Positions 1 through 19,970 of a stretch of DNA of 39,692 bases are shown one piece after another; position 1 is the first letter of the stretch; each line of letters opens with the position of its first letter. A program made the translations under genes and the position numbers. This stretch comes from a virus (taxonomy: Duplodnaviria > Caudoviricetes), in the IMG/VR virus record IMGVR_UViG_3300044674_003315, positions 1 to 39,692 of that record; one strand, 5' to 3'. Below the pieces are notes generated by a model, which saw nothing but the letters and a program-made list of their open reading frames with translations, was not told where the DNA came from and did not search any database.

Positions 1-2416
1 CCATGTGAGCACGCTCGAAGTCGGTGGCGCTTGTGTAGGTGTTATATATGTTATACGTCTGCGCGTTGACTCCGTTGCGCTGGGCTAGAGTGCCGGCGGC
101 GTCTCGGTAAAGGCGCGTATCCGCTGAGCTACCTAGTGCCAAGTTAGAAGTATTTCTCCTCAGCCAGAGCGCGTCGCCGCTGTCCAGACTAAGCCTCGAC
201 GTACCCCCAATAGCATAGGAGAGGGTCGAGCCAGACGTGCTAAAGCCGCCGTTCGAAGACGGCCCTATCACTAGCGCCGGTTCCGTGGGAATTCCTGCGG
301 GGAGAGTTAAAGCCCCAGTGTTGCTAACTTTAAACTTACTCGCTCCACCAACCTGCAAATCCAGCAGCTTGCTACCCGCTGCGCTGGCAGTGTCGGTGAC
401 ATCGGCCTTGATCAAGGTAAATGTATCGGCAGCATCATTCCAGGTGCTGGAGAGATTGAGTGCTTGGGCGTCGTCTGTTAGGGTGCCTTGATCGACGTCA
501 AGCGTCGTGCCTATGTAGGCAGTTCTGGGCCTGTTAGCGGATGCCGCCCCAATATCATAGGTGTTGTCCGCCTGGGCTAGAAGATGACCAGCCGTACTAA
601 TTTTCCAGTGGTTTGAGCCCGCAGCACCACCGAGGAATAGGGTTTGCCCCCGGAGAAACAAAGGGCGCGCCACTCCCGTCCCCGACTTTGCGACCTGAAT
701 AGTGGCATCATTGGCGCTAAAACCTAGCGACAACCACTCAGCGTTGCCCGCACCGTCGTCCGTGTTGTAGATGTTGGACGTTTGGGCATTGACGCCGTTA
801 CGTTGTGCTAGGGTGTTGGCTGCGTCTCGTGCTAGGGTTACGTCTTCTATTTGTAACAACGCTGTATTGCCATACATAAAAACAGACCCATCACTCCAAA
901 ACTCTTGGCGTTTCCCCCCAGCAACGGCTATGGAGATAGAACTGGCACCAGACCTATAAATTCCGTCAGCGGAATCCGCAGCAAACGAGTAAGCTGGTGC
1001 AGAAGCTGAACCACTCCCGGCTAACAATAACCCTCCCTTATCCACGCTGAACTTGCTCGCCCCACCCACCTGCAAATCCATCAACTTGCTTCCCGCTGCG
1101 CTGGCAGTGTCAGTGACATCGGCCTTGATCAGTGTAAACGTATCAGCCGCGTCGTTCCAGGTGCTCGTGATGCCGACATTGCCCTTTAGGGCCGTAGTGA
1201 CTATCGAGTCTGCACCAAGAACAACGGTATTAGATCCGAGACCTTCTGCTGAGTCGCCAATGACTATCTGGTTTGTGGCCGCTTCAACCCCTTTAGTCGA
1301 TTTCCCGATAAAGATGGAATCCTCTGCGGATGTTAGGTTCACAGTCCCTCCCGACTGATACCTAGCCGATCGCCACCCCAATACCACGTTGTAGTTGCCG
1401 TCTGCGTTTACAAGAGCTTGGTATCCTGCCGCCAGGTTGTACGCCCCTGACGAGAGGCTCGATCCACTGCTCGCCCCAATACCTATGTTGCCTGACGCAG
1501 TGGAGTTTAATAGAGCATTAAACCCTAAAGCTATACCATAGGAGCCACTAACGTTGTTGTAGAGTGCCGAGTAGCCTATGGCATTGTTATAATTTCCATC
1601 GATGTTACTGCCAAGCGCATTGTAGCCCATGGCATTGTTCCCGCTGCCATGGGTGTTGCTGAATAACGGTCTGTAGCCTATGGCACTGTTGTAGTCGCCC
1701 TCAGTGTTGCTGAATAACGGTCTGTAGCCCGAGCCATTGTTGTAGGTGCCAGTAGTGTTACTGCCAAGCGCATTGTAGCCCATGGCACTGTTCCCGTCGC
1801 CAGTAGTGTTCTGATTGAGCGCATGGTAGCCTGCGGCAGTGTTCCCTGCTCCCGTTAGCAATGCATCCGATAGAGCCGCACTACCTACACTAGTGTTAAG
1901 GAGCGTTGTATCGACCCCAAACACGCGATCAGCTCCGATCTTTAGCTGGATGTCTCGAACCGTCCCACCTGCGGATCCTGCCTCTGTCCCGATAACAAAA
2001 GTGTCAGCAGTGTCATTAAATCCGATGTGCGCCCGCTCGTAGTTAAAGGCATGTGTGTAGGTGTTGTAGATGTTGTAGGTCTGGGGATTGAAACCAAATC
2101 GCTGTCCTAAAGTATTTGTCGCGTCGCGGTATAGCGCCAAGTCACTATTCCAGTAAAGAGCGCCATTGGAGCCACTGAGGCGATATTGATAAGCACTCAA
2201 GGTGCCGCTTGCGTCTAGCGAGTAGGACAGATTTGGTGCAACGCCTATCCCCATTCTGCCATTTGAGTCCACGCTAAACTTGCTCGTCCCGCCCACCTGC
2301 AAGTCTAGCAACTTGCTACCCGCCGCGCTGGCGGCGTTAGTGACATTTAGTTTAATGCCATTAAAGAGAGTCGCCCCGTTGTCCCAGGTATCTGTTAGGT
2401 TAAATATATCAGCCAT
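1..2416 (-). CDS. Modular tail fibre / receptor-binding protein, 5' part (runs off the window start; continues at 39692..39193 if circularised, about 913 aa)
   Basis: ATG at 2416 (MADIFNLTDTWDNGATLFNGIKLNVTNAASAAGSKLLDLQVGG...). It is absent from the ORF track, presumably because no stop occurs before position 1; I spot-checked the frame but did not translate every codon. The frame matches ORF 39193..39660 across the 127-nt terminal overlap. It has repeated SAAGSKLLDLQVGG and LxRDAxxTLxQR modules and 17-aa NxAxGYxAL repeats. Confidence 0.8.
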   Translation of the reverse strand, partial: MADIFNLTDTWDNGATLFNGIKLNVTNAASAAGSKLLDLQVGGTSKFSVDSNGRMGIGVAPNLSYSLDASGTLSAYQYRLSGSNGALYWNSDLALYRDATNTLGQRFGFNPQTYNIYNTYTHAFNYERAHIGFNDTADTFVIGTEAGSAGGTVRDIQLKIGADRVFGVDTTLLNTSVGSAALSDALLTGAGNTAAGYHALNQNTTGDGNSAMGYNALGSNTTGTYNNGSGYRPLFSNTEGDYNSAIGYRPLFSNTHGSGNNAMGYNALGSNIDGNYNNAIGYSALYNNVSGSYGIALGFNALLNSTASGNIGIGASSGSSLSSGAYNLAAGYQALVNADGNYNVVLGWRSARYQSGGTVNLTSAEDSIFIGKSTKGVEAATNQIVIGDSAEGLGSNTVVLGADSIVTTALKGNVGITSTWNDAADTFTLIKADVTDTASAAGSKLMDLQVGGASKFSVDKGGLLLAGSGSASAPAYSFAADSADGIYRSGASSISIAVAGGKRQEFWSDGSVFMYGNTALLQIEDVTLARDAANTLAQRNGVNAQTSNIYNTDDGAGNAEWLSLGFSANDATIQVAKSGTGVARPLFLRGQTLFLGGAAGSNHWKISTAGHLLAQADNTYDIGAASANRPRTAYIGTTLDVDQGTLTDDAQALNLSSTWNDAADTFTLIKADVTDTASAAGSKLLDLQVGGASKFKVSNTGALTLPAGIPTEPALVIGPSSNGGFSTSGSTLSYAIGGTSRLSLDSGDALWLRRNTSNLALGSSADTRLYRDAAGTLAQRNGVNAQTYNIYNTYTSATDFERAHM
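48..174. repeat. 127-nt exact terminal direct repeat (copy 2 at 39566-39692), probable assembly circularisation overlap
   Basis: Base-by-base identity of 48-174 with 39566-39692. 127 is a commonly used assembler k-mer size. Confidence 0.9.
1380..1850 (-). repeat. 51-nt (17-aa) beta-solenoid-like repeats in the tail fibre
   Basis: Units such as NTTGDGNSAMGYNALGS. gtgttgctgaataacggtctgtagcc recurs at 1653 and 1704; ctgccaagcgcattgtagcccatggca recurs at 1608 and 1761 (3 x 51). Confidence 0.8.
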
Positions 2417-2417
2417 T

Positions 2418-2590
<173 letters not shown>

Positions 2591-2594
<4 letters not shown>

Positions 2595-2827
2595 GATTTT
2601 TGCTTGCTCAGGCTTTTCCATTCCGCAGGCGTATTGAGCAGCGCTATAATGAGCTGCCTCCCTCCATCGATCATACGCGCTCGCTTCGAATCAAAATTAT
2701 GATCCGCATCGAAAATGGGTAGGTCAAAGCCCACTTTCCGTTTTAGATAGCTCACGATAATATCGCCTTGCTCGGTCGCTAGGATTTTCGCGACGGTTTC
2801 TAGTTCGTGCATCTCTCGGCTAGTCAT
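2591..2827 (-). CDS. Small conserved protein downstream of portal (Bbp19-like position)
   Basis: 78-aa ORF in the position and size typical of BPP-1/T7-like podovirus head modules. Confidence 0.6.
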
Positions 2828-2920
2828 GTCGCTTAGGCCGGTAGGTGCCCACTATCTTACCGCTTATAGCGTACGCCATTATCTCTCCGCGCCTTCTATC
2901 CTGATAATAGAGCATCTTTA

Positions 2921-4621
2921 TCATGCCGCCTCCCCTGCAAGTTGTTGCATGTTTCTAGCCGCCGCCTCCCCATCAGTATCGCCCACCGTCTGAGCCACGT
3001 TTGCGGCTTGCTCGACTAGCGCCGCTTGCATCATAGCTTGCTCTTGTTGCTGTCTCACTTGACGCTCGCGCTCCACCAGCCGCTCAAGTTTGAGCACATC
3101 TTCGGGGAGACCGTCATTGCGACCCGCCAAACGGATAAGTTTGTCGATATGGAAGTTTTCCACGATCTCAGGCGCAATCGGAGCAAGCGCCAGCAGCCTG
3201 TCTAGCGTGCGATCAATGGCCGAGTTCTGTACCATACGCATGGCTAGAGAAATCCTGGAAGTAAATTCAACCTTTGGCGCCGCGATGAATCCCGACCCAT
3301 CTTCAAGCACCTGAACCACTGACGCTGGAGGCTCGGGGAATACTCCCGCCTCGAAGAGAATGTTGAACACCGTGGAGAAGATGCTTTCCATCTCCGATGT
3401 GAGCTGATTGAAATTTGGCAAGAACTTACGAAGAGCACCCGCTTCAAGAGCCGCCACTTCGCGCGCCGTCATTTGCTTGTCTTTCTGGGCGATACTCTCG
3501 AAGAGCGACGCATGGAACGCCGCTCGAACTTCCACCCTCTTCGCTTCCATCAGCTTCTCGCCAACGGCGTAGTTGGCTCGGTTGAGTAGTTGCTCAGGCT
3601 TGCCGCCCTGCCCCTTCCGCTCATCGTAGACCGTGACCCCATTCGGGTAGGGCGCTACTTCACCCACCATCCCAGCAGGCACGAGCCACGGAGGCCGCAC
3701 AGCCAAAGCCGCCCCCTCGTCCATGTCACGCGCCAGCTTGTTAAGCTGGCGAATCGCAGGCATTGCCCGGTTGGCGGGACAGTTGCCGTAAACGTAATCG
3801 TTCCATCGCTCCGCGCGGATACACGCGTAAGGAAAGTGTTCGTATCCGCCTCGCTCTAAGACGTGCTTATCTTCCTGGCATACGTAAACGCTTGCCCATT
3901 CCATCTCGGTTGCAGCCGGTGAAGTTTCATCCCTATCTACGCGAGGAAAAACAGCGTGAATGACCCTGAATTCCGTGTGCTCCGCCGTCTTGCCTGCCCT
4001 GATGGCCATTAGGGCCTTGCGAGCCGAGGCACCAAGGTTTTTCTCGCCGAACATATCGGCCATCTGTTCAGCGTTTAGGCGCAGCTCACGGTACAGCTTC
4101 GATACCGAACCATTCGCGTCTTCCTCGATAGCGAAATAGCCGAGCCTAACGTAGGAAAACTGCAAAAGGTTTTTAGAGCCTTTGCGGAGAGCAAGCGCCG
4201 CCGTGCCAGCGTAGCCCATATCCGTGACCGCTGGTTTGAGTTGCTGGTAGAATCGAGAGCGCGCTATGTGCAAGAGTGCGATCTCGCCGCACTTTGCGTA
4301 CCATTTATTGGCGGCATCGTCTGCCGCGTCAGCATCCTCTGGAGACCAGACCATCCATTGCTCGTTGGCGGGAAATATCTCGCTAATTAGGCCTGTCGCG
4401 TACGAGTCGAGAGCATCGAGCGCCGTAGTGTCGAATATTCCACTAAATCCCGTTCGATCAGGGCTTTTAGGAATTTCCGAGTAAATATCGACTTGAGGCG
4501 CGCAATAGCGCCCGTTGTAATCCCATCGAGATTTCCAGGTCTCCAGATCCGTAAAGAGAGCCGTCTTCCGCTTAATAATGTACTCTGCCGACTCGTCGCG
4601 CATCTCTCTATTATTGGCCAA
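2921..4621 (-). CDS. Portal protein (head-to-tail connector, podovirus type)
   Basis: 566 aa with IFDTTA, GGYEHFPY..RAERW..YG.CP, PPWLVP and QMTAREV motifs of T7/BPP-1-like connectors; follows the terminase. Confidence 0.9.
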   Translation of the reverse strand: MANNREMRDESAEYIIKRKTALFTDLETWKSRWDYNGRYCAPQVDIYSEIPKSPDRTGFSGIFDTTALDALDSYATGLISEIFPANEQWMVWSPEDADAADDAANKWYAKCGEIALLHIARSRFYQQLKPAVTDMGYAGTAALALRKGSKNLLQFSYVRLGYFAIEEDANGSVSKLYRELRLNAEQMADMFGEKNLGASARKALMAIRAGKTAEHTEFRVIHAVFPRVDRDETSPAATEMEWASVYVCQEDKHVLERGGYEHFPYACIRAERWNDYVYGNCPANRAMPAIRQLNKLARDMDEGAALAVRPPWLVPAGMVGEVAPYPNGVTVYDERKGQGGKPEQLLNRANYAVGEKLMEAKRVEVRAAFHASLFESIAQKDKQMTAREVAALEAGALRKFLPNFNQLTSEMESIFSTVFNILFEAGVFPEPPASVVQVLEDGSGFIAAPKVEFTSRISLAMRMVQNSAIDRTLDRLLALAPIAPEIVENFHIDKLIRLAGRNDGLPEDVLKLERLVERERQVRQQQEQAMMQAALVEQAANVAQTVGDTDGEAAARNMQQLAGEAA

Positions 4622-4808
4622 GCATGGTTTTGTGCCCCGACTGGTAAGCGGGATTGAACGAGCCCGCCCGCACAGTGTTCAGCGTCGAACTGTTAGCGAC
4701 TCTTTTAGACCGTCTGCGTTTCGCGATGGCGTCAGCCTCGACTACTGGCGCTTCTGCGTTGGCAGGAGGAGGCGGTGCTGCTGGAGGTTTTGGTGAGTCG
4801 AATCCCAT
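4611..4808 (-). CDS. Small virion protein preceding portal
   Basis: Pro-rich N-terminus, basic middle and KTMLGQ C-terminus, as in small pre-portal proteins of podoviruses. Confidence 0.65.
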   Translation of the reverse strand: MGFDSPKPPAAPPPPANAEAPVVEADAIAKRRRSKRVANSSTLNTVRAGSFNPAYQSGHKTMLGQ

Positions 4809-4833
4809 AAGGTTGACTCTAAGCCCGCAGAGC

Positions 4834-4849
4834 TGTTAACGTCAACTCA
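4834..4849 (-). promoter_or_regulatory. Conserved 16-mer TGAGTTGACGTTAACA, copy 1 (putative late promoter/operator)
   Basis: Identical 16-mer at 21625-21640 and 36785-36800. Contains TTGACG followed 18 nt later by TAGAGT. Confidence 0.6.
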
Positions 4850-6376
4850 ATAACCGCCTTGCGATACCACCCTAGGCAGAGCCAATCTCGTCTCTGGCGA
4901 ATGATCAGGCTGTAGCAAGAGCCCGTGAAGCTCAACCTCAGCCATGTAGCCGAACGCATCCGAAGGATGCGACGCCCAATCATGCACCGGCTGCGAGGTA
5001 ATGTAGCCACCCCCTACCTTGTCTTCCTTGTAACGATAGTGAGACAACGCAGCTAGCAACATCTCAACTGCTGGCGAATCGCAAAACCAGGTATTTGCGA
5101 GCGCCGCCCTGCTTCGATTGATTCTTATATGCACATCCTCTGTCCGAGGGATAGCTTCGCACCCTTTAAGCCCGGCCTCAGTCAGTTCCTCTAAAAACGA
5201 ATAGCCCGCTGGGCTTTTCGCTTGGGAGTCATGTGGCAGGTAGTGCGCACCGAAGGTATAGCCCTTAGCAAGCATATGGGCGACTCGCTGCCCAAGGTTG
5301 AGATCCTGGCCTAAATCGCAATCGATCACTCGCCGTTGAACGCCGATATGTTGCCAGTAAACAACCACGGTGTTTGCTGGTGAACCGATATCCCATGTGG
5401 TCGACACAAGATGATCCGGCTCATGCTGGAACGCGCAGACTTGACCATCTACGCGCACCTTGTTGATATGTGGCGCGTAGATCGCTCCGTTAACGGGCGT
5501 GAGAAAGATCTCTTCTAGCCGCGAAGGATACTCTTCAAATCGAGCCGCTTTCTTCCCCCAAGCGTTCTTGAAATACCAAAGCTTTTGCTCTGGCGTGAGC
5601 GTGATTCCGTCTTCCTCTAGATCGCTAAAATACTTTACGCAGTCCGGCCCTATCTGCTTTGGATCTCCCTCGAAAAGCAGCGTCTTGTCTCCCTGCCACG
5701 GGAAGAACCGAATAACCCAATCACGCGCCGTCCGGTATTCATCGGAGAGCTTAAGGGCACCCTCTACGACCTCGCTATAAAGCCTCCCCGCCTTCCCGCC
5801 TCGCCAGGTCGTCTCTATGACCACGGTGCCTTTATCCGCAGCCGGAAGCGCGCCATCCGCGATAGCATCCGAGCGCCTCACATCTTCGAACTGGATCGGC
5901 CCCCACTCAGACACCCACAATAGTTGAAACGTGTCACCGCGCGCGCGCATGCCCGCTTCTAGGTAGCGCTCCTGATCTGGTTCCTGCCCATCACGCGTTA
6001 TGCGCGTGATGATGAATTTGCCCTCACTATCGGCTATTACTTCGAAGCAGCTCTTGAAGTCCTGCGGCAGCTCGTTCCACGCGTGCTTGATCTTTCGCCG
6101 CTTTTTCTCCGCGTCCGCCGCCGTTTGGTCGATAATCGCGATGCGAACGCCCGGCTTGAACAGCAACCAATCCAGGCAGACGAGAGCTAGCAGAGTGCTG
6201 AAACCTAACTGACGAGCTTTTAAAATAGCGATCCTGACGTTCCCGGTTTGGTAAAGGTCTTCGAGAATTTGCCATTGTTCAGCGCGAGGATCGAACAGCA
6301 GCGTAGGCCGCTCATCCGCAGGCTTTATATGGTACAAGTGCGCGAATCGCCATCGCCAAGAGGTAAGTGTCTGCAT
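4847..6376 (-). CDS. terL: Terminase large subunit
   Basis: ILKARQLGFST Walker A variant, LWVSEWG Walker B, IETT coupling motif, TWDIG RNase H Asp, and HDWASHPSDAFGY C-terminal motif. Confidence 0.92.
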   Translation of the reverse strand: MQTLTSWRWRFAHLYHIKPADERPTLLFDPRAEQWQILEDLYQTGNVRIAILKARQLGFSTLLALVCLDWLLFKPGVRIAIIDQTAADAEKKRRKIKHAWNELPQDFKSCFEVIADSEGKFIITRITRDGQEPDQERYLEAGMRARGDTFQLLWVSEWGPIQFEDVRRSDAIADGALPAADKGTVVIETTWRGGKAGRLYSEVVEGALKLSDEYRTARDWVIRFFPWQGDKTLLFEGDPKQIGPDCVKYFSDLEEDGITLTPEQKLWYFKNAWGKKAARFEEYPSRLEEIFLTPVNGAIYAPHINKVRVDGQVCAFQHEPDHLVSTTWDIGSPANTVVVYWQHIGVQRRVIDCDLGQDLNLGQRVAHMLAKGYTFGAHYLPHDSQAKSPAGYSFLEELTEAGLKGCEAIPRTEDVHIRINRSRAALANTWFCDSPAVEMLLAALSHYRYKEDKVGGGYITSQPVHDWASHPSDAFGYMAEVELHGLLLQPDHSPETRLALPRVVSQGGY

Positions 6377-6382
6377 GGCATA

Positions 6383-6859
6383 TTATGTTCCTTGCGCTTC
6401 CTCAATCATATCCATCAATTTGTGATTCACTTCCCCGCTATGCTCCACCGCTTGGGTTAACCGCCATTTCTGTCGGTTCATCAACCAAAACTGAGCCGCC
6501 CTTGTATCGGGAGGGTAATGTTTATCGACCTCTTGAGTGTCAGTAATCATGCCCTCATGAGTTGCGACTTTGGTTTCTTTGCACTGGTACCCTCGCGCCC
6601 GATGGTAAAGAGCCTCAGCTATTTCCGCATCGGCCAGTTCTTTGCCTTCCTTTACGGCACATGAAAATTCCGGGATCTCTCGAATCCATTTATCAATAGT
6701 CGGGACAGATACCTCGAAGCATTGTGCTAGTTTCTCGTTTGTCGCACTGAGCAGGCAGAACTTTTTAGCAAGCTTGGCGTACTCTTCCCGGTAAAGCGTT
6801 GGCCGACCGACCTTCTTAGGCGTCTTCTTCTTAGGCGTCTTCTTCTTAGGCGTCTTCAT
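6383..6859 (-). CDS. terS: Terminase small subunit
   Basis: GRPTLY N-terminus, HTH (LAQCFEVSVPTIDKW), ALYHRARGY and HYPPDTRAAQFWLMNR motifs; directly upstream of terL. Confidence 0.85.
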   Translation of the reverse strand: MKTPKKKTPKKKTPKKVGRPTLYREEYAKLAKKFCLLSATNEKLAQCFEVSVPTIDKWIREIPEFSCAVKEGKELADAEIAEALYHRARGYQCKETKVATHEGMITDTQEVDKHYPPDTRAAQFWLMNRQKWRLTQAVEHSGEVNHKLMDMIEEAQGT

Positions 6860-7103
6860 CTTTAGCGCTTGCGGTTTTCAACTTCGGTCTCCCCATCAAC
6901 TTCGTTCTCCCCTTCAACCAAAGCCGCTTCTGAGCCGCAATAATTTTCTCCTCACTCATCCCCCGCTTTCGGCATTCCGCATAATGCGAGCAGATCGTTC
7001 TCTTGCTTGGTTTCCTGACGCCCCAAAATGAGTAATAGTCCGCCCACCCCTGAAAAGTGCGCTCACCGTATCGAATTGGCCGCCTACCTGCTTTATCGCT
7101 CAT
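6846..7103 (-). CDS. Hypothetical basic protein
   Basis: 85-aa ORF overlapping both neighbours in the operon. Confidence 0.6.
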   Translation of the reverse strand: MSDKAGRRPIRYGERTFQGWADYYSFWGVRKPSKRTICSHYAECRKRGMSEEKIIAAQKRLWLKGRTKLMGRPKLKTASAKDEDA

Positions 7104-8667: not shown

Positions 8668-9042
8668 CTATGTCATTGTGATTTCAATTCTCGCCCCCTG
8701 CCCATCATCCCAAAACTTACAAATATGCCCTTCCGCGACTACGAAATCGTCCGCAAATAGCGCGTCCAAGATCGCCTTGTCTATGTTGTCTCTGTCAGGC
8801 TTCGCTCGGTGGGGTTGCCCCATTAGGGCCGCCCGTTTTGCCTTGGAATAGCTTTTAGGTATTGGCAGGTACGCTCTCCAAGAGACCTCCAAAGGGCGCA
8901 CAGGATGGCCTACACAGGCTGCACGCAATAAATCCTTAAACGCACGGTAACGCATCACCACTGGCCTGCGTTGCCATTTGTCTCGCTGTGTCATCCGGGG
9001 GGCTCCCATGGGGGCAATGTAGACAACGGCGGAGTAACTCAT
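8668..9042 (-). CDS. rusA: RusA-like Holliday junction resolvase
   Basis: PMGAPRMTQRDKW and KPDRDNIDKAILDALFADD catalytic motif. Start placed at ATG 9042, directly after the attC-derived repeat. Confidence 0.85.
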   Translation of the reverse strand: MSYSAVVYIAPMGAPRMTQRDKWQRRPVVMRYRAFKDLLRAACVGHPVRPLEVSWRAYLPIPKSYSKAKRAALMGQPHRAKPDRDNIDKAILDALFADDFVVAEGHICKFWDDGQGARIEITMT

Positions 9043-9085
9043 GTAAAGTGTATTTTGCTTATCGGGCCGGTGCCTCACCCTTGGC
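9043..9085 (+). mobile_element. attC-like half site (site 0; right arm, R' degenerate)
   Basis: 40/43 identical to 9473-9515 of site 1. Confidence 0.6.
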
Positions 9086-9469
9086 AAAGTCTAAGTCCTT
9101 TTGCATTGCTCTTTCATCTGCAGACTTAAAAAGTCTGCACTCGGGGCATTCATCCATTGCTGCCGCGCCCCACGGTAAAACTCCCCCCGTATCTATCGCC
9201 CCTGACCCGTCACACGTTCCGCAAAGCCGCTCGACTCGATACCCCCATTCGCGGGTCATCTGTGCGCCTTCCTCACAGTAGTAGCTCCCGCCCCAACATG
9301 TCGCGCCTGTGAACTTGTAGTAGAATCCAATCTCCCCACGGCATTTTCCCGTCACGCTGCAACGCCCGTCGCACTCGCGTAGCGAACGCGAAACCGGAGA
9401 ACAATCGGGTGGAGAGCAACCGCCCTCCCGCTGGGTGTTTTCGTCGTTGTTTTGCTTATTCGTCGTCAT
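9059..9469 (-). CDS. Cys-rich (CxxC, zinc-finger-like) cassette protein
   Basis: 136 aa with CGTCDGSG...ECPEC. Starts in the loop of site 1 and ends in site 0. Confidence 0.7.
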   Translation of the reverse strand: MTTNKQNNDENTQREGGCSPPDCSPVSRSLRECDGRCSVTGKCRGEIGFYYKFTGATCWGGSYYCEEGAQMTREWGYRVERLCGTCDGSGAIDTGGVLPWGAAAMDECPECRLFKSADERAMQKDLDFAKGEAPAR

Positions 9470-9522
9470 TAGGTAAAGTGTAGTTTACTTATCGGGGCGG
9501 TGCCTCACCCTTGGCGTTCTCC
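9396..9522 (+). mobile_element. attC-like recombination site 1 (127 bp)
   Basis: GGAGAAC (R'')...GGGTGgAGaGCAaCCGCCC / GGGCGGTGCCTCACCC...GTTCTCC (R'): an imperfect palindrome with three extrahelical bases, an unpaired spacer and a long loop. Confidence 0.75.
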
Positions 9523-10253
9523 AAAGAATCAGAGCTCTGTTCCGGTGAGGATTTCCCATGCGCCAGCAGCCACAGCCGGAATCTGTCCGTTGCCAATGGC
9601 TCGATTGCGCTCCAACCCGTTACCCAGCCCATCAGCCATTCTTGGAATTGGGGGCATGGTTGCCCTCCAGCCAGTTGCCACAGGCTTACGCCATAGCGCT
9701 GCCCTTTCGCGGATACGCTGCTCCCAGTTTCGTCCAAAGTCCTTTTCGACGGGTTGGTCAGAGGAGTGGGCAGCAATCCACATCCTCTTTCTCCGGTGAA
9801 GCAGTCCGGCATCGTCACCGCCGAGCACTCCCCATGCAGCATTATACCCCATTTCGGCCAGGTCTCCGAGAACGTGTCCAAGCCCTCTAGAAGCGAGGTT
9901 TGGGGAGTTTTCCACGAAGACGAAGCGGGGTTCCACTTCGCCAATGATCCGTGCCATTTCCCTCCAGAGACCGGAGTGTTCGCCATCTGTCCCTTCTCCT
10001 TTTTGGTTGGCGCAGGAGATGTCAGTGCATGGGAAACCTCCGCAGACGACATCTGCGATCCCCTTCCACGGTTTCCCGTCGAAGGTTGAGACATCACCCC
10101 AAACAGGGAACCATGGGAGTATCCCGTCTCGCTGCCGCTGGATGAGGACACTCCTGGCGTATGGTTCAAGTTCGACAGCGCAACAGGGTTGATGTCCGCA
10201 AAGGATGCCGCCGAGGATTCCTCCCCCGCAGCCTGCAAATAGGTGTAGCTCAT
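9489..10253 (-). CDS. Alternative-frame partner (beta-like subunit) of the cytosine methyltransferase
   Basis: 254-aa ORF spanning almost the whole MTase gene. It carries WPKWG, LLPTP and the motif-IX-like CPQFQEWLMGWVTGW that the MTase frame lacks. Confidence 0.7.
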   Translation of the reverse strand: MSYTYLQAAGEESSAASFADINPVALSNLNHTPGVSSSSGSETGYSHGSLFGVMSQPSTGNRGRGSQMSSAEVSHALTSPAPTKKEKGQMANTPVSGGKWHGSLAKWNPASSSWKTPQTSLLEGLDTFSETWPKWGIMLHGECSAVTMPDCFTGERGCGLLPTPLTNPSKRTLDETGSSVSAKGQRYGVSLWQLAGGQPCPQFQEWLMGWVTGWSAIEPLATDRFRLWLLAHGKSSPEQSSDSLENAKGEAPPR

Positions 10254-10260
10254 GATTCAT
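9529..10260 (-). CDS. DNA cytosine-5 methyltransferase (alpha-like subunit)
   Basis: Motif I LFAGCGG, IV GGFPC, VI ENSP, VIII HRRKRMW and X AIGNGQ. Confidence 0.9.
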   Translation of the reverse strand: MNHELHLFAGCGGGILGGILCGHQPCCAVELEPYARSVLIQRQRDGILPWFPVWGDVSTFDGKPWKGIADVVCGGFPCTDISCANQKGEGTDGEHSGLWREMARIIGEVEPRFVFVENSPNLASRGLGHVLGDLAEMGYNAAWGVLGGDDAGLLHRRKRMWIAAHSSDQPVEKDFGRNWEQRIRERAALWRKPVATGWRATMPPIPRMADGLGNGLERNRAIGNGQIPAVAAGAWEILTGTEL

Positions 10261-10275
10261 TTATCGGTTCTAAAA

Positions 10276-10647
10276 TTAAGAAGGAGAACAAGAAGTCGCA
10301 CCCAACCCTCCTTCGTCGGGTGGGTGGACATTGGCGTTCTCCTTCAATCGAACGGTTCCCGTGCCGTCGTTCCATTCTATCTCATACCACCGCTCTACCC
10401 ACTCCAAAGCCGCTCGGATGTGCGGAGCGTATAGCCTCCCGGACGATGTATCGAAATCGACCATATCCCATCCCACCCCATTCCACTGGAAGGTGAACCT
10501 GTCGTGGCATCCCCAGACGCCTGAATCGTTCTCGAAGATGACTTGGCCATCGTGGTCTGTTACGATGTGAGGCACGCCGCACAATGTAATCGAACGCGAA
10601 ACCGGAATACAATCGGGTGCCTCACCCTTTCCGTTCACCTGCCTCAC
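10276..10647 (-). CDS. Hypothetical cassette protein
   Basis: 123 aa with a GTGA-coupled start. The N-terminus is encoded by site 3 and the C-terminus by site 2. Confidence 0.65.
   Translation of the reverse strand: MRQVNGKGEAPDCIPVSRSITLCGVPHIVTDHDGQVIFENDSGVWGCHDRFTFQWNGVGWDMVDFDTSSGRLYAPHIRAALEWVERWYEIEWNDGTGTVRLKENANVHPPDEGGLGATSCSPS
10283..10342 (+). mobile_element. attC-like recombination site 2 (60 bp)
   Basis: GGAGAAC-aagaa-GTCgCACCCAaCCC-tccttcgtc-GGGTGGGTGGAC-attggc-GTTCTCC: attC-like size, two extrahelical bases, complementary R''/R'. Confidence 0.8.
10591..10637 (+). mobile_element. Collapsed attC-like site 3
   Basis: 10591-10619 is 27/29 identical to 9383-9411 and is fused via GGTG to the right arm GGTGCCTCACCCTT...GTTC; the central stem-loop is missing. 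Confidence 0.6.
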
Positions 10648-10853
10648 TTCCTCCAGACCTCCACGGCACCCTTAATATCCGCCGGAGATTGCACGATCCG
10701 GGCCTTGATGTTCGACCGACGCAGGTCCATCAGCGCATTCTCCGCCATCCACATCTCGCTCTCCAGGTATGGCCGAGTGACAGAGTGCAACCCTAACTTT
10801 TTCGCCGTCGTTGGCTTAATGGGCTTTCGCCCTCTTGGGTCTAGCGCGCTCAT
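10644..10853 (-). CDS. Hypothetical protein
   Basis: Start moved to ATG 10853 (ATGA overlap with the upstream stop). Confidence 0.6.
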   Translation of the reverse strand: MSALDPRGRKPIKPTTAKKLGLHSVTRPYLESEMWMAENALMDLRRSNIKARIVQSPADIKGAVEVWRK

Positions 10854-11061: not shown

Positions 11062-11694
11062 TTACAATCCTTTTAATATTGGCATTATCTCTTTTCTCTT
11101 CTGTTCGTAGTAAACGAGGAAACGGTCCAATGCGTAACTAACTTTCTCCGTGTAGGAATCCCGCTCTACTCGCACAATGAGAGGCTTGAGCCCACGACAA
11201 TAGCTCATGTAATACCAGTAATCCAAGCCAGTGACGGCCAGAGCACCATGCACTTGCTGCTTATGCTTGTCTGGTAGTTTGCCCGCAATCAGATCCATTG
11301 CGTGATTCTTCTTTGTTGGGCACTTGATCTCTAGGCCCGCTAACGGCTCTTCTGAGCCTTCTTTATAGACCAGCCCGTCAGGCGAACACCCCGCTATTTC
11401 ATCGTCACGAGTAATAAACCCAACCTCTTGCACCCCGAATCCCATCTCAAGGGCGAACAGATCCCGCGCCTCTGGTTCTAGCTCGTTGCCTCTGTCGGTA
11501 TGGTAGTTCCCTTCGAACTTCACCTCGAATGGAGGTAGACATTCCGCGCATAGCTCAACTGCGAAGCCTCCCCATTGGGAGGAGTCTTTTCCCGTCGACG
11601 TGATGATTCGAGAAAATTCAGAAGCCGTTGGACGCCCCGAACGCACGGCAAACCATTGCTCAGAGCCCTGAGCCAAGTCTGGTAGAATTGTCAT
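11062..11694 (-). CDS. YqaJ/lambda-type exonuclease
   Basis: QGSEQWFAVR, TASE, RGNELEP, GCSPDG, LEIKCP and QQVH motifs. Confidence 0.92.
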   Translation of the reverse strand: MTILPDLAQGSEQWFAVRSGRPTASEFSRIITSTGKDSSQWGGFAVELCAECLPPFEVKFEGNYHTDRGNELEPEARDLFALEMGFGVQEVGFITRDDEIAGCSPDGLVYKEGSEEPLAGLEIKCPTKKNHAMDLIAGKLPDKHKQQVHGALAVTGLDYWYYMSYCRGLKPLIVRVERDSYTEKVSYALDRFLVYYEQKRKEIMPILKGL

Positions 11695-11709
11695 AAGCAG
11701 AATATTAAA

Positions 11710-12630
11710 TTAGTTTTTATTTATGTCAGTCCATGCTGCTTGAACCTTCAACGTGAATGCTTCACTTTTGAGCTGATTCGCCTCATGCTTCAGCGCTTCT
11801 CTGTGAGCCTTCACGCTAGCGAGCGCGCGAAAGAGTGCCGCCTTGTAGTCTGCCCACTCTTCGGCTGCTGATTGTGGCGTTGGAAAGTGAGCGCTCCCCT
11901 CTTTTTTCTCGATGGGCGCAGCAGGAGGCTTGTTGGCTTCCGCTGCTTCCTTCTTAGCTTCCGCCGCCGCTGCCTCTGCCTTGGCTTTTGCCTGCAAGGC
12001 TTCATAGCGCATGACCCGATTTTCTAGTTCTGCGGGCAGCGCAGACGGATCATAGCAAAGGAGCCCGTTGAAATCGCTGATCAGAGATTCCCGCGATTGG
12101 TCCGCATCGGCAAATGCCACCAGCAATTCACGGCACTTGGAGACTTCGCCCAGCTTCGTTTTGATCGCGACATCGGCGGCGGATCGCATGGACTCAAGTG
12201 TCCGTTTGCCCTTAACCGCCCCCACAACCAGACCGCGCACAGCCGAGGCTCGCGACTCAGTGAGTCCGCTCTCTTTGACGAAGAGCGCAACAGCTTGATC
12301 GATGATGCTTGCCTTAATTTTTGCCTTCTGAGCCTTCACGGCTTTATCGAGATTCAGGCGCACCTGGCGCACATCCTCCTCTGTCTCGTCAAGCTCGTTC
12401 AGGACTGCAGTCAACCGCCCGGCTTCGTCAATTGCTTTATTCCGAGCCGCCTTAATTTTGCCCTGTAGGTCAGTGAGTGTTTTTACGTCTACCTCAGCCT
12501 GGCCGAAATCCTCGTCAGACGAAAGCTCAGTGTTAACCTCCTTGAGGCGCTCGCTCACAAACGCCCGAAACTCTGGCAAATTGGACTCCACGACCTCGCC
12601 CTTTAGGCGTATTGCTAGCGCTACGCTCAT
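11710..12630 (-). CDS. Coiled-coil recombination-associated protein (DUF1351-like)
   Basis: Helical 306-aa protein (GEVVESNL..F...L.SDEDF.QA) located between the recT-like and exonuclease genes. Confidence 0.55.
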   Translation of the reverse strand: MSVALAIRLKGEVVESNLPEFRAFVSERLKEVNTELSSDEDFGQAEVDVKTLTDLQGKIKAARNKAIDEAGRLTAVLNELDETEEDVRQVRLNLDKAVKAQKAKIKASIIDQAVALFVKESGLTESRASAVRGLVVGAVKGKRTLESMRSAADVAIKTKLGEVSKCRELLVAFADADQSRESLISDFNGLLCYDPSALPAELENRVMRYEALQAKAKAEAAAAEAKKEAAEANKPPAAPIEKKEGSAHFPTPQSAAEEWADYKAALFRALASVKAHREALKHEANQLKSEAFTLKVQAAWTDINKN

Positions 12631-13289
12631 ATGGGCAACTCCTCCCCATTTTCCTTTGTGCCTGTTTTCTCAAAAGGATCAATTTCAAGCTGAGATTCCA
12701 CCTCGCGCGCCTCAATAGGCCGCAAGGTGATCTCTTCCGCTTCCTCATACGTCTTCATCCCCATAAGCACTTCAGGAGCGTAGAGGCGGCCAAAGAGGGT
12801 GGCTGTTCTGTACCTAAGCATAAGCTCTGGCATTGTTTTCCACTTCGAGCCGTTCTTTTGATACCAACCCTCGGCCTTCGCCATGTTGATTGACACTGGC
12901 GGGCTTTCTAGGCGCTCCCCGCCACTCTTCTCGTCCGCCCACGCGACACATGACGCGGCGTCACCTTCCCCCGTGATTTCGAATCGTAGCGGCGAAAACT
13001 TTCCTGTCGCATTGATAGCGGCAATGATGAACTGAGAAGACCAGCTAGGCTTTCCGTGGACGATGTACAGATTTTGCATCACTGCTAGCGGGCTAGCTTG
13101 CATGCGCTGCGCCATTTCCAGAGCAATGATACAATTAGGCAAATTGCTTCGGCCTTGGAATTCTTTAGGCACAAGCGCCGATGAGCAGAGCATCTGCGCT
13201 TGTCGTTGCGCCAGTTCAAAATTGGCTGCGTTCGCGAATAGGCTCGCGTCTTTCATTTCTAGTTGTGTTTCTGGCATGGTTTCTGACAT
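12627..13289 (-). CDS. RecT/Red-beta-like single-strand annealing protein
   Basis: LVPKEFQG..NCIIA.EMA..., VMQNLYIVHGKPSW and KWKTMPELMLRYR motifs; near the exonuclease gene. Confidence 0.8.
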   Translation of the reverse strand: MSETMPETQLEMKDASLFANAANFELAQRQAQMLCSSALVPKEFQGRSNLPNCIIALEMAQRMQASPLAVMQNLYIVHGKPSWSSQFIIAAINATGKFSPLRFEITGEGDAASCVAWADEKSGGERLESPPVSINMAKAEGWYQKNGSKWKTMPELMLRYRTATLFGRLYAPEVLMGMKTYEEAEEITLRPIEAREVESQLEIDPFEKTGTKENGEELPI

Positions 13290-14994: not shown

Positions 14995-15206
14995 GAAGGC
15001 TTATTATTTTTTAGGTTTTCTTCCTGCTCGGCTTTCTTGCGCGCTCTGTATTTCCGCTGCGCCTCCGCCTTCTTCTCTTTGTTCGCCGCGTACCACGCTG
15101 CTTTCCTGGCCTGCTCCTTAGCTAGGTGCTCCTCGTCTTCAGCGAGCACCTCAGCGCGATAGCGCCTCATGTATTCCTTGAAGTAACTGTTGCGGTTTGC
15201 GGGCAT
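14991..15206 (-). CDS. Small basic helical protein
   Basis: 71 aa, K/R/E-rich; divergent from the integrase. Confidence 0.55.
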   Translation of the reverse strand: MPANRNSYFKEYMRRYRAEVLAEDEEHLAKEQARKAAWYAANKEKKAEAQRKYRARKKAEQEENLKNNKPS

Positions 15207-15251
15207 GTTCTTCTGTTGTTCTTCCCGTCCCGTATGGTATCAGGCGGTAGC

Positions 15252-16412
15252 ATGCAAGGAAAAAAAATCAAAGTTGGTACGGTCTCGCTGACCGTCTACC
15301 CGTGGCGACACCCATCGGGCCGCGACTATTGGCGATGGGCCTGGTATGACACTAACGGCAAACGCCGGTATGGAACACGCGCGACAAAGCAGGACGCCAT
15401 CACAGCAGCTCGCGCAAAAGCCCTAGAGATCCACAACGGCACGCTAGACCTCTCCGAAATGACGCCAGAGAGGCGCAGCCTAGTTGCTGCGTTTCTCGCG
15501 CTGGATCCTACGTGGAGCCATATCGAGACCCTGCGAAGGATCGCCGCTCGCAAGTCCGTCTTGCTAGCCGATGCCGTGACAGAGTTCCTAGAAATCAAAG
15601 CAGCGAACCAAGGCAGAAGCCCCCGGAATCTAATGACGCTCAGGAAGAACCTGACACCGTTGGTTGCGGATCTTGGATCTGTAAAGCTCGACCAGATAAC
15701 CGTTACCGAGCTGGACGCCTGGCTGTCCCAGATCAGACACCTGGCCGCGCGGACACGTCAGAACCGCCGAGCCTCCGTGGTGACGTTCTGGCGATGGTGC
15801 CGAGCACGTGACTATGTGCCAGACCGAACAACGGAAGCCGAGAAGATGGCTAAGCCGATCACGGAAAGAAAGGTTCCGCTGACGTACACGCCCGAAGAAA
15901 TGCAGATCTTGCTTGATGCCGTGCAGCCGCACTACCTCCCTTGGCTTGTGCTCGCTGGTTTCGCTGGTATCCGCAACGAGGAAATGCACCCCGTCCCGAC
16001 GAGTCGCAAGAGCCCGCTGCTATGGTCAGATATCGATCTCCAAAGGGGATTGCTCACGATCAGGCCCGAGACATCAAAGACGGGCCAACGGCGAGTGATT
16101 GAGATGCGCCCGAACCTCAGAGCGTGGCTGAATAAATGCGAAGGATCGCAACTTGGCCACCACAAGCCACCAGACAAGACGCGACACGGAGAGGATGCAG
16201 AGACAAAGCGCATCGGGAAACTAGTCGGAGGGTGGCGCAGAAACGCGCTCAGAGACTCTTTCATCTCCTACCGAGCAGCCCAAGCAGGGATTGCCAGGGC
16301 AGCGATGGAAGCCGGAAACTCAGAGAGCGAGGCGAAGAAGAGTTACCACGACGCGAAAAGTCAGGAAGATGGGGAAGCGTGGTTCAGCCTGATGCCCCAA
16401 GAGCGAGGTTGA
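15252..16412 (+). CDS. int: Tyrosine recombinase / phage integrase
   Basis: Arm-binding-like N-terminus, SAM-like domain, AGIRNEE (R), SKTG (K), NALRDSF (xxLR), AGNS and KKSY (Y); next to the tRNA-derived attP. Start placed at ATG 15252. Confidence 0.88.
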   Translation: MQGKKIKVGTVSLTVYPWRHPSGRDYWRWAWYDTNGKRRYGTRATKQDAITAARAKALEIHNGTLDLSEMTPERRSLVAAFLALDPTWSHIETLRRIAARKSVLLADAVTEFLEIKAANQGRSPRNLMTLRKNLTPLVADLGSVKLDQITVTELDAWLSQIRHLAARTRQNRRASVVTFWRWCRARDYVPDRTTEAEKMAKPITERKVPLTYTPEEMQILLDAVQPHYLPWLVLAGFAGIRNEEMHPVPTSRKSPLLWSDIDLQRGLLTIRPETSKTGQRRVIEMRPNLRAWLNKCEGSQLGHHKPPDKTRHGEDAETKRIGKLVGGWRRNALRDSFISYRAAQAGIARAAMEAGNSESEAKKSYHDAKSQEDGEAWFSLMPQERG

Positions 16413-16425
16413 CTTTAGAGAATTG

Positions 16426-16462
16426 TGCGACATCCCACGGGTTCCCTGTGACATCTCACGGG
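16426..16462 (+). repeat. Direct repeat TGYGACATCYCACGGG x2 (putative integrase arm sites)
   Basis: 16426-16441 and 16447-16462, 21-nt period, just after the int stop. Confidence 0.6.
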
Positions 16463-16547
16463 GGCGTGTAACCTTAACAGTTTTGCTATAAATAATCATA
16501 ATGCCATCCCGGTTTGTTCTGCTTTCATAGGCACGCATAATTGAAAC

Positions 16548-16624
16548 GTACTTAAATCACTCCAGAGGTTTAAGTACTTAAATCACTCCAGAGGTTTAAG
16601 TACTTAAATCACTCCAGAGGTTTA
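16548..16624. repeat. 26-bp tandem repeat x3 (GTACTTAAATCACTCCAGAGGTTTAA)
   Basis: Read directly; no spacers between units. Confidence 0.95.
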
Positions 16625-18848: not shown

Positions 18849-19970
18849 CTAGGCGGCATACCACCCTTTACCGGTTCTCTGGTCCATAAGCCCTAGAAAG
18901 TATTTCTCGTACTGTGGTGCAATGGCCTCCAGGGTATAGCGTTCACCACGCTTCCTGCAGGCAGCAGGATCAATCTCGGCCACTCCCTCAACAGCCTCAA
19001 CGAATTCTCGAAACGTATTGCATCGGAACCCCACGCTTTCATCGTTGACTTCCGCATAAGCGCCCCAATTAGACGTGATCAGGGGAGTGCCTGAAAGCAG
19101 GGCTTGCACCTGAGTGCCCCCGAAGGGCTCCAGGTATTTCCCTGGGAGAATCAGAGCATGCGCTTTCGAGAAGGCTTGTCTCCGTGTCTCAATATCAGCG
19201 TACCCTTTCCAGTGGATAAGACTAGTCGGCCCGTTGGCCTTCTCATAATCTGCTTTGAATTCGTCCATCCCTTGCCCATAAACATGAAGCGGACGCCCCG
19301 CTTTCTCAGCTACCTGAATAGCAATGTCAGCTCCCTTGGCATCTCCTACCCTGGCCAAAAAGAGCAGATAATCCTCCTTCTCTTCACAGTAGCGATACTC
19401 ATCAGTATCAAAGTAATTGGGGATGACAGTATTCTGCCAGGACATATAGCCGATGCGTGCCCCGTCTAGACCATAGTAGGCATGCATAAGAGCGTGAGAC
19501 TCAAAAACTTTGTATGGTGCATAGTGCCCTGAGCTGTAGCCGATCCCAGGCTCGACCACGATCATATCAGAGTGCGCCTGAGCTATCGGTTTCAGGCCAT
19601 TCCAGAATGGGAGGAGGAAATCAGTGCAGGGTTCATTCGTCCAGAGTTTGCCTGCTCGCTTTTCCCATAGGGCCGCATTCGCTCGCCGATAGTATTCCTG
19701 ATAGGCCTCATCCTCGTGGCTGAAACTGAAAAGGTGAGTCTTCCAATCATGTTCCCCGTAAACCCTGTTAAATGTCTCCCTGGTAATCACGTCAACATGC
19801 TCTGAGCACTCAACATCCGAGTCAGGATGCCCGTAGTGGATGACGTGATGCCCACGCTCATGCATCATGCGGCAGAATAGACGGGCCTTTTGCGTGTAGG
19901 CACAGGCACAGAAATCTGCATTAGTGATGGTGTGAGGAACTCCGAGAACGTGCAGCCTATATTTCATCAT
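18849..19970 (-). CDS. GT-B (GT4-like) glycosyltransferase
   Basis: [18 protein letters not shown] and [18 protein letters not shown] donor-binding motif. Confidence 0.88.

What the first reader, a model, noticed from the sequence alone, without database searches (positions are those of the whole stretch)
9043..10637. Integron-type attC cassette array inside a phage early operon, with no integron integrase
Seen: two complete attC-like sites (9396-9522, 10283-10342) with complementary GGAGAAC/GTTCTCC ends, short unpaired spacers and 2-3 extrahelical bases, plus two decayed relatives (9043-9085, 10591-10637). They delimit three gene units: a CxxC protein, the methyltransferase pair and a 123-aa protein. 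The MTase unit (about 9517-10336) would rebuild a perfect R''/R' pair on circularisation. Established: IntI recombines folded single-stranded attC at G/TT, and integrons are regarded as features of chromosomes and plasmids, not phages. Inference: this phage may borrow a host IntI to gain, lose and shuffle accessory genes between its recombination and replication modules. The phage integrase looks like an ordinary attP/tRNA integrase. The cores are GAAC/GTTC rather than the canonical RYYYAAC/GTTRRRY.
Basis: partly seen in the sequence, partly recalled or inferred. Interest (0 to 1): 0.92.

Follow-up and report, generated by a model that had tools for sequence, protein, structure and literature searches.

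The report
Backwards integron cassettes in estuary phage
This estuary phage carries two intact and two broken integron-type DNA hairpins between its early genes, with the genes written on the strand opposite to the one bacterial integrons use; it has no integron enzyme of its own, so its methyltransferase cassette would likely be moved by an enzyme borrowed from its host or from other phages that carry one in the same back-to-front layout.

Summary
Confirmed: sites A (9396-9522) and B (10283-10342) have attC architecture, are the only such sites in this 39.7-kb temperate phage (shuffles 0.07), and score 54.6 and 39.9 bits on a model built from sites beside phage integron integrases. C and D are dead half-sites, so only the 820-bp methyltransferase unit is predicted excisable. 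Related DNA swaps neighbours at G/TT. A homologous methyltransferase pair is the first cassette of a complete phage integron. Of 80 viral loci with an IntI relative, 43 have attC-shaped sites upstream of intI; their cassette genes run mostly backwards, towards intI, and two near-identical phages differ in cassette order. GAAC/GTTC is the commonest core there. Phage attC clusters are published (Qi 2023), so 'not phages' is wrong; I found no paper on the inverted layout or on phage early-operon integrons. This scan found the layout before on other DNA (17 or more genomes). Not shown: recombination in this phage, or where its IntI would come from. New variant of a known kind.

The parts
8668..9042 (-). 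RusA resolvase gene; probable ATG at 9042 abuts half-site C; sits where intI lies in IntI-carrying phages
   Evidence: Pfam RusA E 3e-13; sequence; comparison with G014 and G022
9043..9085 (+). Site C: right half of an A-type attC (end of loop, L', spacer) without GTT and without left arm; carries the stop of the CxxC gene and the leader of rusA; predicted dead
   Evidence: 93% identical to 9473-9515; no fold, z 0.23; no hit with models R2, R3; a contig of run X6 has GTTCTCC after 9085 (table 5c)
9059..9469 (-). 136-aa CxxC protein of unknown function; ATG inside the loop of site A, read through L'' and R''; cassette 9086-9516, predicted locked because C is dead
   Evidence: no Pfam, PHROG or NCBIfam family
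9396..9522 (+). Site A: intact attC, 127 bp; crossover predicted at 9516/9517; its loop holds the stop of the beta-like methyltransferase frame (9489-9491) and the start of the CxxC gene (9469)
   Evidence: R3 54.6 bits, R2 58.9 bits, no hit at E<=10 with the proteobacterial model R1; 87-88% identical sites in L093 and L089
9517..10336 (+). Methyltransferase cassette, 820 bp, with B as its own attC; the only unit with two intact flanking sites
   Evidence: homologous gene pair is the first cassette of a complete phage integron in L185
9529..10260 (-). C5 cytosine methyltransferase, alpha-like chain (243 aa)
   Evidence: PF00145 E 4e-26; 56% to the L185 homologue
9489..10253 (-). Overlapping second frame (254 aa), likely the beta-like chain as in M.EcoHK31I; reads the crossover AAC as Asn and stops in the loop of A
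   Evidence: phrog_1008 DNA methyltransferase E 5e-17; second frame conserved in L185 (37% over 233 aa); architecture of M.EcoHK31I from passages of PMC2836561; assignment of motif IX is recalled
10283..10342 (+). Site B: intact attC, 60 bp; crossover predicted at 10336/10337; read through in frame by the 123-aa gene
   Evidence: R3 39.9 bits, R2 47.3 bits, R1 16.2 bits at E 0.2 as best hit of the window
10276..10647 (-). 123-aa protein of unknown function; cassette 10337-10633; its C-terminal tail comes from site B
   Evidence: homologues P0241 and P0242 stop at ...ENA where this one goes on; other left neighbours in L089 and four runs
10604..10639 (+). Site D: A-type attC with interior deleted and R'' core changed (AAC to TAC); GTT kept at 10633-10635; predicted dead
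   Evidence: z -1.28; no hit with R2, R3
11062..13289 (-). Recombination module upstream in the operon: YqaJ exonuclease, RecE-like protein, RecT
15126..16412 (+). Phage tyrosine integrase, not an IntI; nearest named relatives in Verrucomicrobiales
   Evidence: phrog_1; TIGR02249 17.4 bits; Luteolibacter arcticus 45%, Roseibacillus persicicus 43%

Best explanation
Sites A and B have the build of integron attC sites, the genes between them lie on the bottom strand, and the phage has no integron integrase, so this is likely an integrase-less array of a phage-type, back-to-front integron whose methyltransferase cassette would be excised or exchanged by an IntI supplied in trans. How it works. Shown in other viral contigs: intI sits inside the phage early operon, the array lies upstream of it with the ordinary intI/attC geometry, and cassette genes are coded on intI's strand, so the operon runs through the array towards intI. 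Inferred: because the phage promoter lies at the far end of the array rather than in intI, only bottom-strand genes are expressed, which selects the inverted cassettes. Shown: each attC then precedes its own gene, often holds that gene's start codon in its loop, and supplies the last residues and stop of the gene before it, with the crossover AAC read as Asn, so a swap at G/TT keeps the frame. Inferred for this phage: rusA stands where intI stands in the others and half-site C where attI would be; C and D have decayed, which locks the CxxC and 123-aa genes; A and B can still fold on single-stranded DNA and be joined attC x attC by an IntI of the host (likely Verrucomicrobiales) or of a co-resident IntI-carrying phage, removing the 820-bp cassette or adding new ones at G/TT. 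The cassette likely protects phage DNA from host restriction.
For: Architecture and rarity. R3, built from 90 sites of 16 IntI loci, scores A 54.6 and B 39.9 bits on + (next hit 12.3) and also finds bacterial attC on their canonical strand, e.g. the blaIMP-10 cassette site at 26.6 bits. L-box pairs covary in those sites (97% paired, all 7 pairs with two-sided changes; alignment fitted to the model). Geometry: 109 of 116 sites in 80 viral IntI-relative loci lie upstream of intI on the opposite strand, 7 downstream, 0 on intI's strand. Gene strand between sites: bottom 36, top 2, unclear 8 of 46 by composition, bottom 22, top 3, tie 19 of 44 by ORF length; Vibrio and Shewanella arrays top 22, bottom 5, unclear 7 of 34 and top 27, bottom 3, tie 3 of 33; window bottom 3 of 3 by both. 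Circle signature: R'' matches the cassette's own 5' end 4/4 in 51 of 59 cassettes, the present R' in 3 of 59. Junctions: 8 of 35 pairs sharing a cassette start have different previous cassettes, with identity starting 1-3 nt before GTT; L134 and L135 are 99.4% identical over 7.6 kb outside the array and differ in cassette order; L102 and L106 share one cassette and differ on both sides at GTT. For this window's units: the 123-aa unit follows a different attC arm in L089 (1 nt identity before GTT) and in runs X2, X3, X4, X6 (2 nt); A-type sites are followed by at least three other sequences from GTT or GTTC onward. The methyltransferase pair is the first cassette next to an IntI of 424 bits in L185. 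Frame rule: 27 of 28 ORFs that cross into the previous site read AAC as Asn; homologues of the 123-aa protein differ in tail right after ENA. Phage attC sites recombine with IntI1 (PMC9892861, text read); C as first extrahelical base costs only 2.7-fold (PMC2727003, passage).
Against: No recombination was observed in this phage: no contig joins across the methyltransferase unit and no circle was seen in the 4 runs laid (table 5; contigs only), and the short variant contigs may come from other phages. Two of four sites are dead, no attI is evident. The model from 22 proteobacterial-type sites (R1) gives B only E 0.2 and misses A; IntegronFinder's own model was not available. R3 is not wholly independent: its training sites were collected with R2, whose seeds came from patterns modelled on site A or its relatives. 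Junctions to the right of the shared A-type site are equally compatible with homologous recombination, and RecT and an exonuclease are next door. The scan required C or G before GTT, so a 1-nt match there is built in; 4 of its 8 pairs come from one pair of phages. The 80 loci include near-duplicates, and only 6 of their integrases were scored (2 over the TIGR02249 cut-off, 4 at 180-203 bits). Chloroflexota controls were mixed by the composition method (top 5, bottom 4, unclear 2 of 11), top 9 of 10 by ORF length. No Verrucomicrobiales chromosome could be examined, so a host IntI is untested; the host is inferred from 43-45% integrase hits.
Confidence: 0.68

Rival explanations
1. Relic array. 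The cassettes were gathered by IntI in an ancestor that carried intI at the rusA position; after its loss the array only decays or is exchanged by RecT/exonuclease recombination between shared attC copies, and the hairpins survive because they carry start and stop codons.
For: C and D are dead; no IntI or attI; recombination genes adjacent; A-type sites are shared at 87-88% over 120 bp, enough for annealing; loops hold start and stop codons, which would conserve them without recombination.
Against: A and B keep full arm pairing and score like sites of IntI-bearing arrays; the 123-aa unit changes its left neighbour with only 1-2 nt of identity before GTT, too little for annealing, although those swaps could be old; a 97%-complete IntI-less record (G005, L102) also differs from a relative at GTT on both sides of one cassette.
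Confidence: 0.25
2. The hairpins are RNA signals (terminators or translational couplers) of the early operon and the attC likeness is convergent.
For: They lie at gene junctions on the transcribed strand and contain stop and start codons.
Against: Fixed polarity relative to intI (109 of 116), circle signature (51 of 59), junctions at GTT, cross-recognition of bacterial attC; no terminator-like site on the coding strand at A or B.
Confidence: 0.04
3. The phage's own tyrosine integrase (15126-16412) recombines the hairpins.
For: It is the only site-specific recombinase found in the genome.
Against: 17 bits on the integron integrase model against a cut-off of 265; phages that have a 44%-identical integrase carry a separate IntI beside their arrays (L134, L135, L137); Cury et al. 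2016 (passage) found that non-IntI recombinases near attC are not integron integrases.
Confidence: 0.03

Closest known systems
Clusters of attC sites lacking an integrase (CALINs) in phage genomes; Qi et al. 2023, PMC9892861
   Same: Two or more attC sites within 3 kb in a phage, no intI, a methyltransferase cassette; sites of such clusters were recombined by IntI1.
   Different: The tested TJE1 array has genes on the top strand; here genes are on the bottom strand, overlap the sites and use their loops for start and stop. One of Qi's records (MW202573) is itself inverted by my scan, which the main text I read does not remark on; its figures and Dryad file were not visible to me. Their complete integrons are captured Vibrio, Shewanella or class 1 pieces, not intI built into a phage early operon.
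Bacterial integrons (IntI, attI, attC; class 1, Vibrio superintegrons)
   Same: R''-spacer-L''(extrahelical base at 4)-loop-L'-spacer-R' build, AAC/GTT core, crossover at G/TT, circle signature, intI divergent from the attC top strand in the related phages.
   Different: Gene polarity reversed; expression likely from the phage operon, not from Pc; GAAC/GTTC core; first extrahelical base C on the bottom strand (65 of 85 phage sites, 1 of 40 Vibrio/Shewanella sites); no intI or attI in this genome.
'Inverted integron-integrase' integrons (Treponema and others; Cury et al. 2016, PMC4889954, passage)
   Same: intI and cassette genes end up on one strand.
   Different: There intI is flipped relative to attC; here intI/attC geometry is ordinary and the genes are flipped relative to attC.
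M.EcoHK31I heterodimeric C5 methyltransferase (PMC2836561, passages)
   Same: Second chain coded in another frame over the first.
   Different: Here the second frame is longer (254 aa) and extends past the first; no restriction partner; sequence not compared with M.EcoHK31I.

Membership tests
attC site | R''(AAC)/L''/L'/R'(GTT) imperfect palindrome with unpaired central spacer | tested here: met
   A and B; not met by C and D
attC site | Extrahelical base in L'' that fixes polarity | tested here: met
   position 4 of L'' in both sites, C on the bottom strand; C tolerated per PMC2727003
attC site | Canonical RYYYAAC/GTTRRRY consensus | tested here: not met
   GGAGAAC/GTTCTCC; only AAC/GTT kept. 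GAAC/GTTC is 57 of 109 sites beside viral IntI relatives, so this is a family trait rather than decay
attC site | Significant score with an attC covariance model | tested here: inconclusive
   R3 54.6 and 39.9 bits, but proteobacterial R1 only 16.2 bits for B and nothing for A; IntegronFinder's model not available
attC site | Natural exchange at G/TT | tested here: met
   (related DNA, not a reciprocal event in this genome)
attC site | IntI-dependent recombination of the folded bottom strand | not testable with these tools
   needs the conjugation assay
CALIN | Two or more attC on one strand within 3-4 kb | tested here: met
   A and B on +, 760 bp apart; IntegronFinder's stricter default count is recalled, not checked
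CALIN | No intI nearby | tested here: met
   genome judged complete with terminal redundancy
Complete integron | intI gene | tested here: not met
   17-18 bits against 265
Complete integron | attI site | tested here: inconclusive
   half-site C lies at the corresponding place but lacks GTT in this genome; no attI model exists among the tools
Classical gene cassette | Gene on the attC top strand, upstream of its attC | tested here: not met
   3 of 3 units on the bottom strand
Classical gene cassette | R'' complementary to the cassette's own 5' end | tested here: met
   methyltransferase unit; 51 of 59 in related arrays

The most novel reading that the evidence does not exclude
Phages run an integron system of their own: hundreds of viral contigs carry an IntI inside the early operon, with back-to-front cassettes whose attC hairpins double as start and stop signals and lend interchangeable protein tails, forming a cassette pool that bacteria cannot express from their own integron promoter; integrase-less phages such as this one draw on that pool by borrowing the IntI of a co-resident phage or of the host.
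Probability: 0.5. Interest if true: 0.85.

Novelty: new variant of a known kind. Interest (0 to 1): 0.62.

Why it matters
Accessory genes of phage early regions (methyltransferases, small unknown proteins) are usually put down to illegitimate or homologous recombination. If they are integron cassettes of reversed polarity, phage mosaicism in these regions has a site-specific mechanism with predictable junctions, the genes between attC sites become an ordered list of candidate counter-defence genes, and integrons, already known as stores of anti-phage genes, would be used by both sides with mirror-image cassettes. It is directly testable with the standard attC x attI assay and with phage-encoded IntI proteins named here (G014, G022, L185).

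Tried and rejected
Rfam: no family at gathering score in the window; no tRNA gene. RecT relatives (80 loci, 48-71% identity) were too distant for gene-by-gene comparison; 3 or 4 had a plausible attC. The first A-derived pattern in viral contigs gave 4 unrelated tape-measure-like matches, and the single genome scan gave 4 unrelated hits, so no Verrucomicrobiales chromosome was reached and the polarity of bacterial arrays with the GAAC core is untested. Site A has no match in the phage or plasmid collections. Portal hits among cultured phages are under 28%. Run X4 covers both flanks but not the methyltransferase gene; without a joining contig this is no evidence of loss. High summed depth of the 123-aa unit in X6 is not a copy number and was not used. 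The RusA query in my tblastn runs was cut one base out of frame, so nothing is concluded about RusA relatives. Stop codons inside sites favour the Asn frame in phage sites (80, 38, 48 of 85 by frame) but are even in bacterial-type sites (36, 37, 34 of 40); the frame of start codons across R'' is not fixed (6, 6, 6 of 18), so no frame rule is claimed for starts. No sigma-70-type promoter excess was found (3 against 3.9), so the operon promoter is inferred. No Verrucomicrobia-type LexA-like box (motif recalled) was found in the window or the two IntI records. A second read layout on 9000-10700 was not obtained, which leaves open whether other runs hold an empty A/B junction. Literature searches found no paper on bottom-strand cassettes or early-operon integrons in phages; most subscription journals are outside the library.
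Full report
Setting. The window is a whole 39,692-bp record judged 100% complete, with about 170 bp repeated at its ends. It encodes a podovirus-like virion, terminase, replication initiator, DnaC, RusA, exonuclease, RecT and a tyrosine integrase. Its DNA occurs in estuary and marine metagenomes (24 runs listed). The integrase's nearest named relatives are from Luteolibacter arcticus (45%) and Roseibacillus persicicus (43%), so the host is likely in Verrucomicrobiales; this is inference. All genes from 6.4 to 15 kb are on the minus strand.

A scan for R''(AAC), 5-nt spacer, L'' with an unpaired fourth base, loop, L', 5-6-nt spacer, GTT finds 2 sites in both strands of the window, A 9396-9522 and B 10283-10342, against 0.075 and 0.067 in 40 and 60 shuffles. 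Bottom strands fold at -18.8 and -13.8 kcal/mol (z -2.32, -2.95). The 5/6-nt spacers are those of the aadA7 site printed in the supplement of PMC9892861. C is only the right half of an A-type site and has no GTT. D is an A-type site with the interior deleted and the AAC changed; contig L089 carries the same gene (94% identical) with the intact site. The genome has no IntI.

Are they attC? Rfam has no hit and IntegronFinder's model was not available, so I built three models. R1, from 22 sites of Vibrio, Shewanella, class 1 and 2 integrons and phage TJE1, ranks B first in the window but at only 16.2 bits (E 0.2, rough) and misses A. R2, from 25 sites of other viral contigs, scores A 58.9 and B 47.3 bits, but its seeds were found with patterns modelled on A or its relatives. 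R3, from the 90 sites that R2 found in 16 loci with an IntI relative, scores A 54.6 and B 39.9 bits, next hit 12.3, and finds 18 sites in the Vibrio, Shewanella and class 1 control loci on their canonical strand (16.9-29.5 bits). C and D score with neither. In the 87 distinct training sites the seven L-box pairs are 97% paired with many two-sided changes (fitted alignment).

The unpaired base puts the top strand of A and B on +, while their genes are on -. The same scan puts genes and top strand together in the Vibrio anguillarum array and in TJE1. On the bottom strand the second methyltransferase frame runs through R' and L' of A and stops in its loop (9489-9491); the CxxC gene starts 19 nt further on (9469) and reads out through L'' and R''; the 123-aa gene reads through the whole of B. 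An unrelated phage with a lambda-type terminase has an 87%-identical A site with another gene starting at the same place in the loop (L093).

Junctions in related DNA. The 123-aa unit begins at GTTCTCC behind a different attC arm in L089 (1 nt shared before GTT) and in runs X2, X3, X4 and X6 (2 nt) (table 7). A-type right arms go on after GTT(C) into the methyltransferase unit (window), ATGCC... (X4), GCTTTG... (L089, X4, X6) or GCACAG... (L093). One X4 contig joins the end of the 123-aa gene to an intact A-type site (record 19; the link to its loose end is my inference from lengths). Homologues P0241 and P0242 match the window's protein up to ...ENA and stop there, while the window's continues with a tail from B; their N-termini come from other loops. 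No contig joins across the methyltransferase unit (table 5; 4 of the 24 runs were laid, contigs only). Junctions right of a shared site could arise by homologous recombination; those on the left, with 1-2 nt of identity, could not.

Where an IntI could come from. Of 23 viral records with this site family, 2 hold an IntI relative (G014 278 bits, over the cut-off; G022 180 bits). In G022 intI lies in the early operon before the replication genes, with 11 attC sites upstream on the opposite strand and the cassette genes on intI's strand; G014 has intI between a cassette and an AAA ATPase/SSB module, and its nearest named IntI is from Terrimicrobiaceae (61%). A search with an alignment of these found 213 stretches in viral contigs; the best 80 were kept. 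In them 109 of 116 attC-shaped sites lie upstream of intI on the opposite strand (43 loci; near-duplicates included; many loci have little upstream DNA), and GAAC/GTTC is the commonest core (57 of 109). Genes between sites are on the bottom strand in 36 of 46 intervals (2 top, 8 unclear) by composition and 22 of 44 (3 top, 19 ties) by ORF length; Vibrio and Shewanella arrays give 22 of 34 and 27 of 33 top; seven Chloroflexota-group loci give 5 top, 4 bottom, 2 unclear, and 9 of 10 top. R'' matches the cassette's own 5' end in 51 of 59 cassettes and the present R' in 3. Among 181 junctions, 35 pairs share a cassette start; 8 have different previous cassettes with identity starting 1-3 nt before GTT. 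L134 and L135, 99.4% identical over 7,650 bp outside the array, hold shared cassettes in different order and have an integrase 44% identical to the window's. In L185 a homologue of the overlapping methyltransferase pair (56% and 37%) is the first cassette, from GTTATGC just upstream of the intI start to an attC beginning GCATAAC, beside an IntI of 424 bits. Of 45 cassettes with a called gene, 28 run into the previous site, 27 of them reading AAC as Asn, and 18 have an ATG in their own site's loop.

Mechanism. Established (PMC8946536, PMC2727003; passages): IntI recombines the folded bottom strand at G/TT and the first extrahelical base sets the strand; C in that place costs 2.7-fold. Shown here: the layout above. 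Inferred: a phage operon read towards intI expresses only bottom-strand genes; loops became couplers and the Asn frame lets any gene take its tail from whichever site follows it. In this phage rusA stands in intI's place, C in attI's, and decay of C and D locks two genes; A x B excision of the 820-bp methyltransferase cassette, or insertion at A or B, would need an IntI from the host or a co-resident phage. I put 0.9 on the units being IntI-made cassettes and about 0.5-0.6 on their still moving in this lineage; the relic reading with RecT exchange is the main rival.

Known and new. Qi et al. 2023 (PMC9892861; I read parts 1-4 of 7 of the text and part 1 of 2 of the supplement, no figures, no Dryad file) describe 17 phage CALINs, five methyltransferase cassettes and IntI1 recombination of 5 of 6 sites, so attC arrays in phages are known. 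Their record MW202573 has three sites on - among genes on +, i.e. inverted, without comment in the text I read; figures I could not see may show it. Other papers were seen as passages only (PMC4889954, PMC8946536, PMC2727003, PMC2836561, PMC13108822, PMC13323075). Searches found no description of bottom-strand cassettes, of loops holding start and stop codons, or of intI inside phage early operons. Earlier notes of this scan report the same layout in at least 17 other genomes; they are unchecked notes and I count only my own tests. I had recorded the inversion before reading them; one of them prompted the search for phage-borne IntI.

Verdict. A real, small, partly decayed member of a phage-type integron system with reversed cassettes: new variant of a known kind, interest 0.62. 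The window alone is a modest example; the comparative evidence for active, IntI-bearing phage arrays is what carries the interest.

Noticed in passing
L134 and L135, about 1700-6950: Two near-identical temperate phages with their own IntI relative hold the same cassettes in different order, junctions at G/TT: a natural shuffling event.
   Followed up: partly
G022 (L130 8053-15905, L122 400-700): Complete phage integron with at least 13 inverted cassettes; its IntI is divergent (180 bits, about 30% to other IntIs) and forms a group with L133-L137.
   Followed up: partly
L185 5972-7810: attI lies about 30 nt upstream of the intI start, so the first cassette's gene ends next to intI, suggesting translational coupling of intI to the array.
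   Followed up: partly
L212 (MW202573) 2069-3738: One of the published phage CALINs is inverted relative to its genes, including a methyltransferase.
   Followed up: yes
window 9489-10260: Two fully overlapping reading frames of a split C5 methyltransferase, both conserved in L185 and L075.
   Followed up: partly
window 16548-16624: Three perfect 26-bp tandem repeats just after the integrase gene, with further short repeats at about 16430-16465; possibly integrase arm sites of attP.
   Followed up: no
window 21642-30002: 2786-aa virion protein with a weak ADP-ribosyltransferase (ART-PolyVal) match, below the Pfam cut-off, and an endolysin-like stretch.
   Followed up: no
window 18849-21613: Glycosyltransferase next to a collagen-repeat tail fibre gene.
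   Followed up: no
window 10644-10647: After the deletion in D the 123-aa frame lost its loop ATG; the only upstream start is a GTG overlapping the stop of the 101-aa gene (GTGA).
   Followed up: partly
window 1-170 and 39520-39692: Terminal redundancy of about 170 bp with a few mismatches, inside an ORF region with 51-bp repeats at 1614-1846.
   Followed up: no
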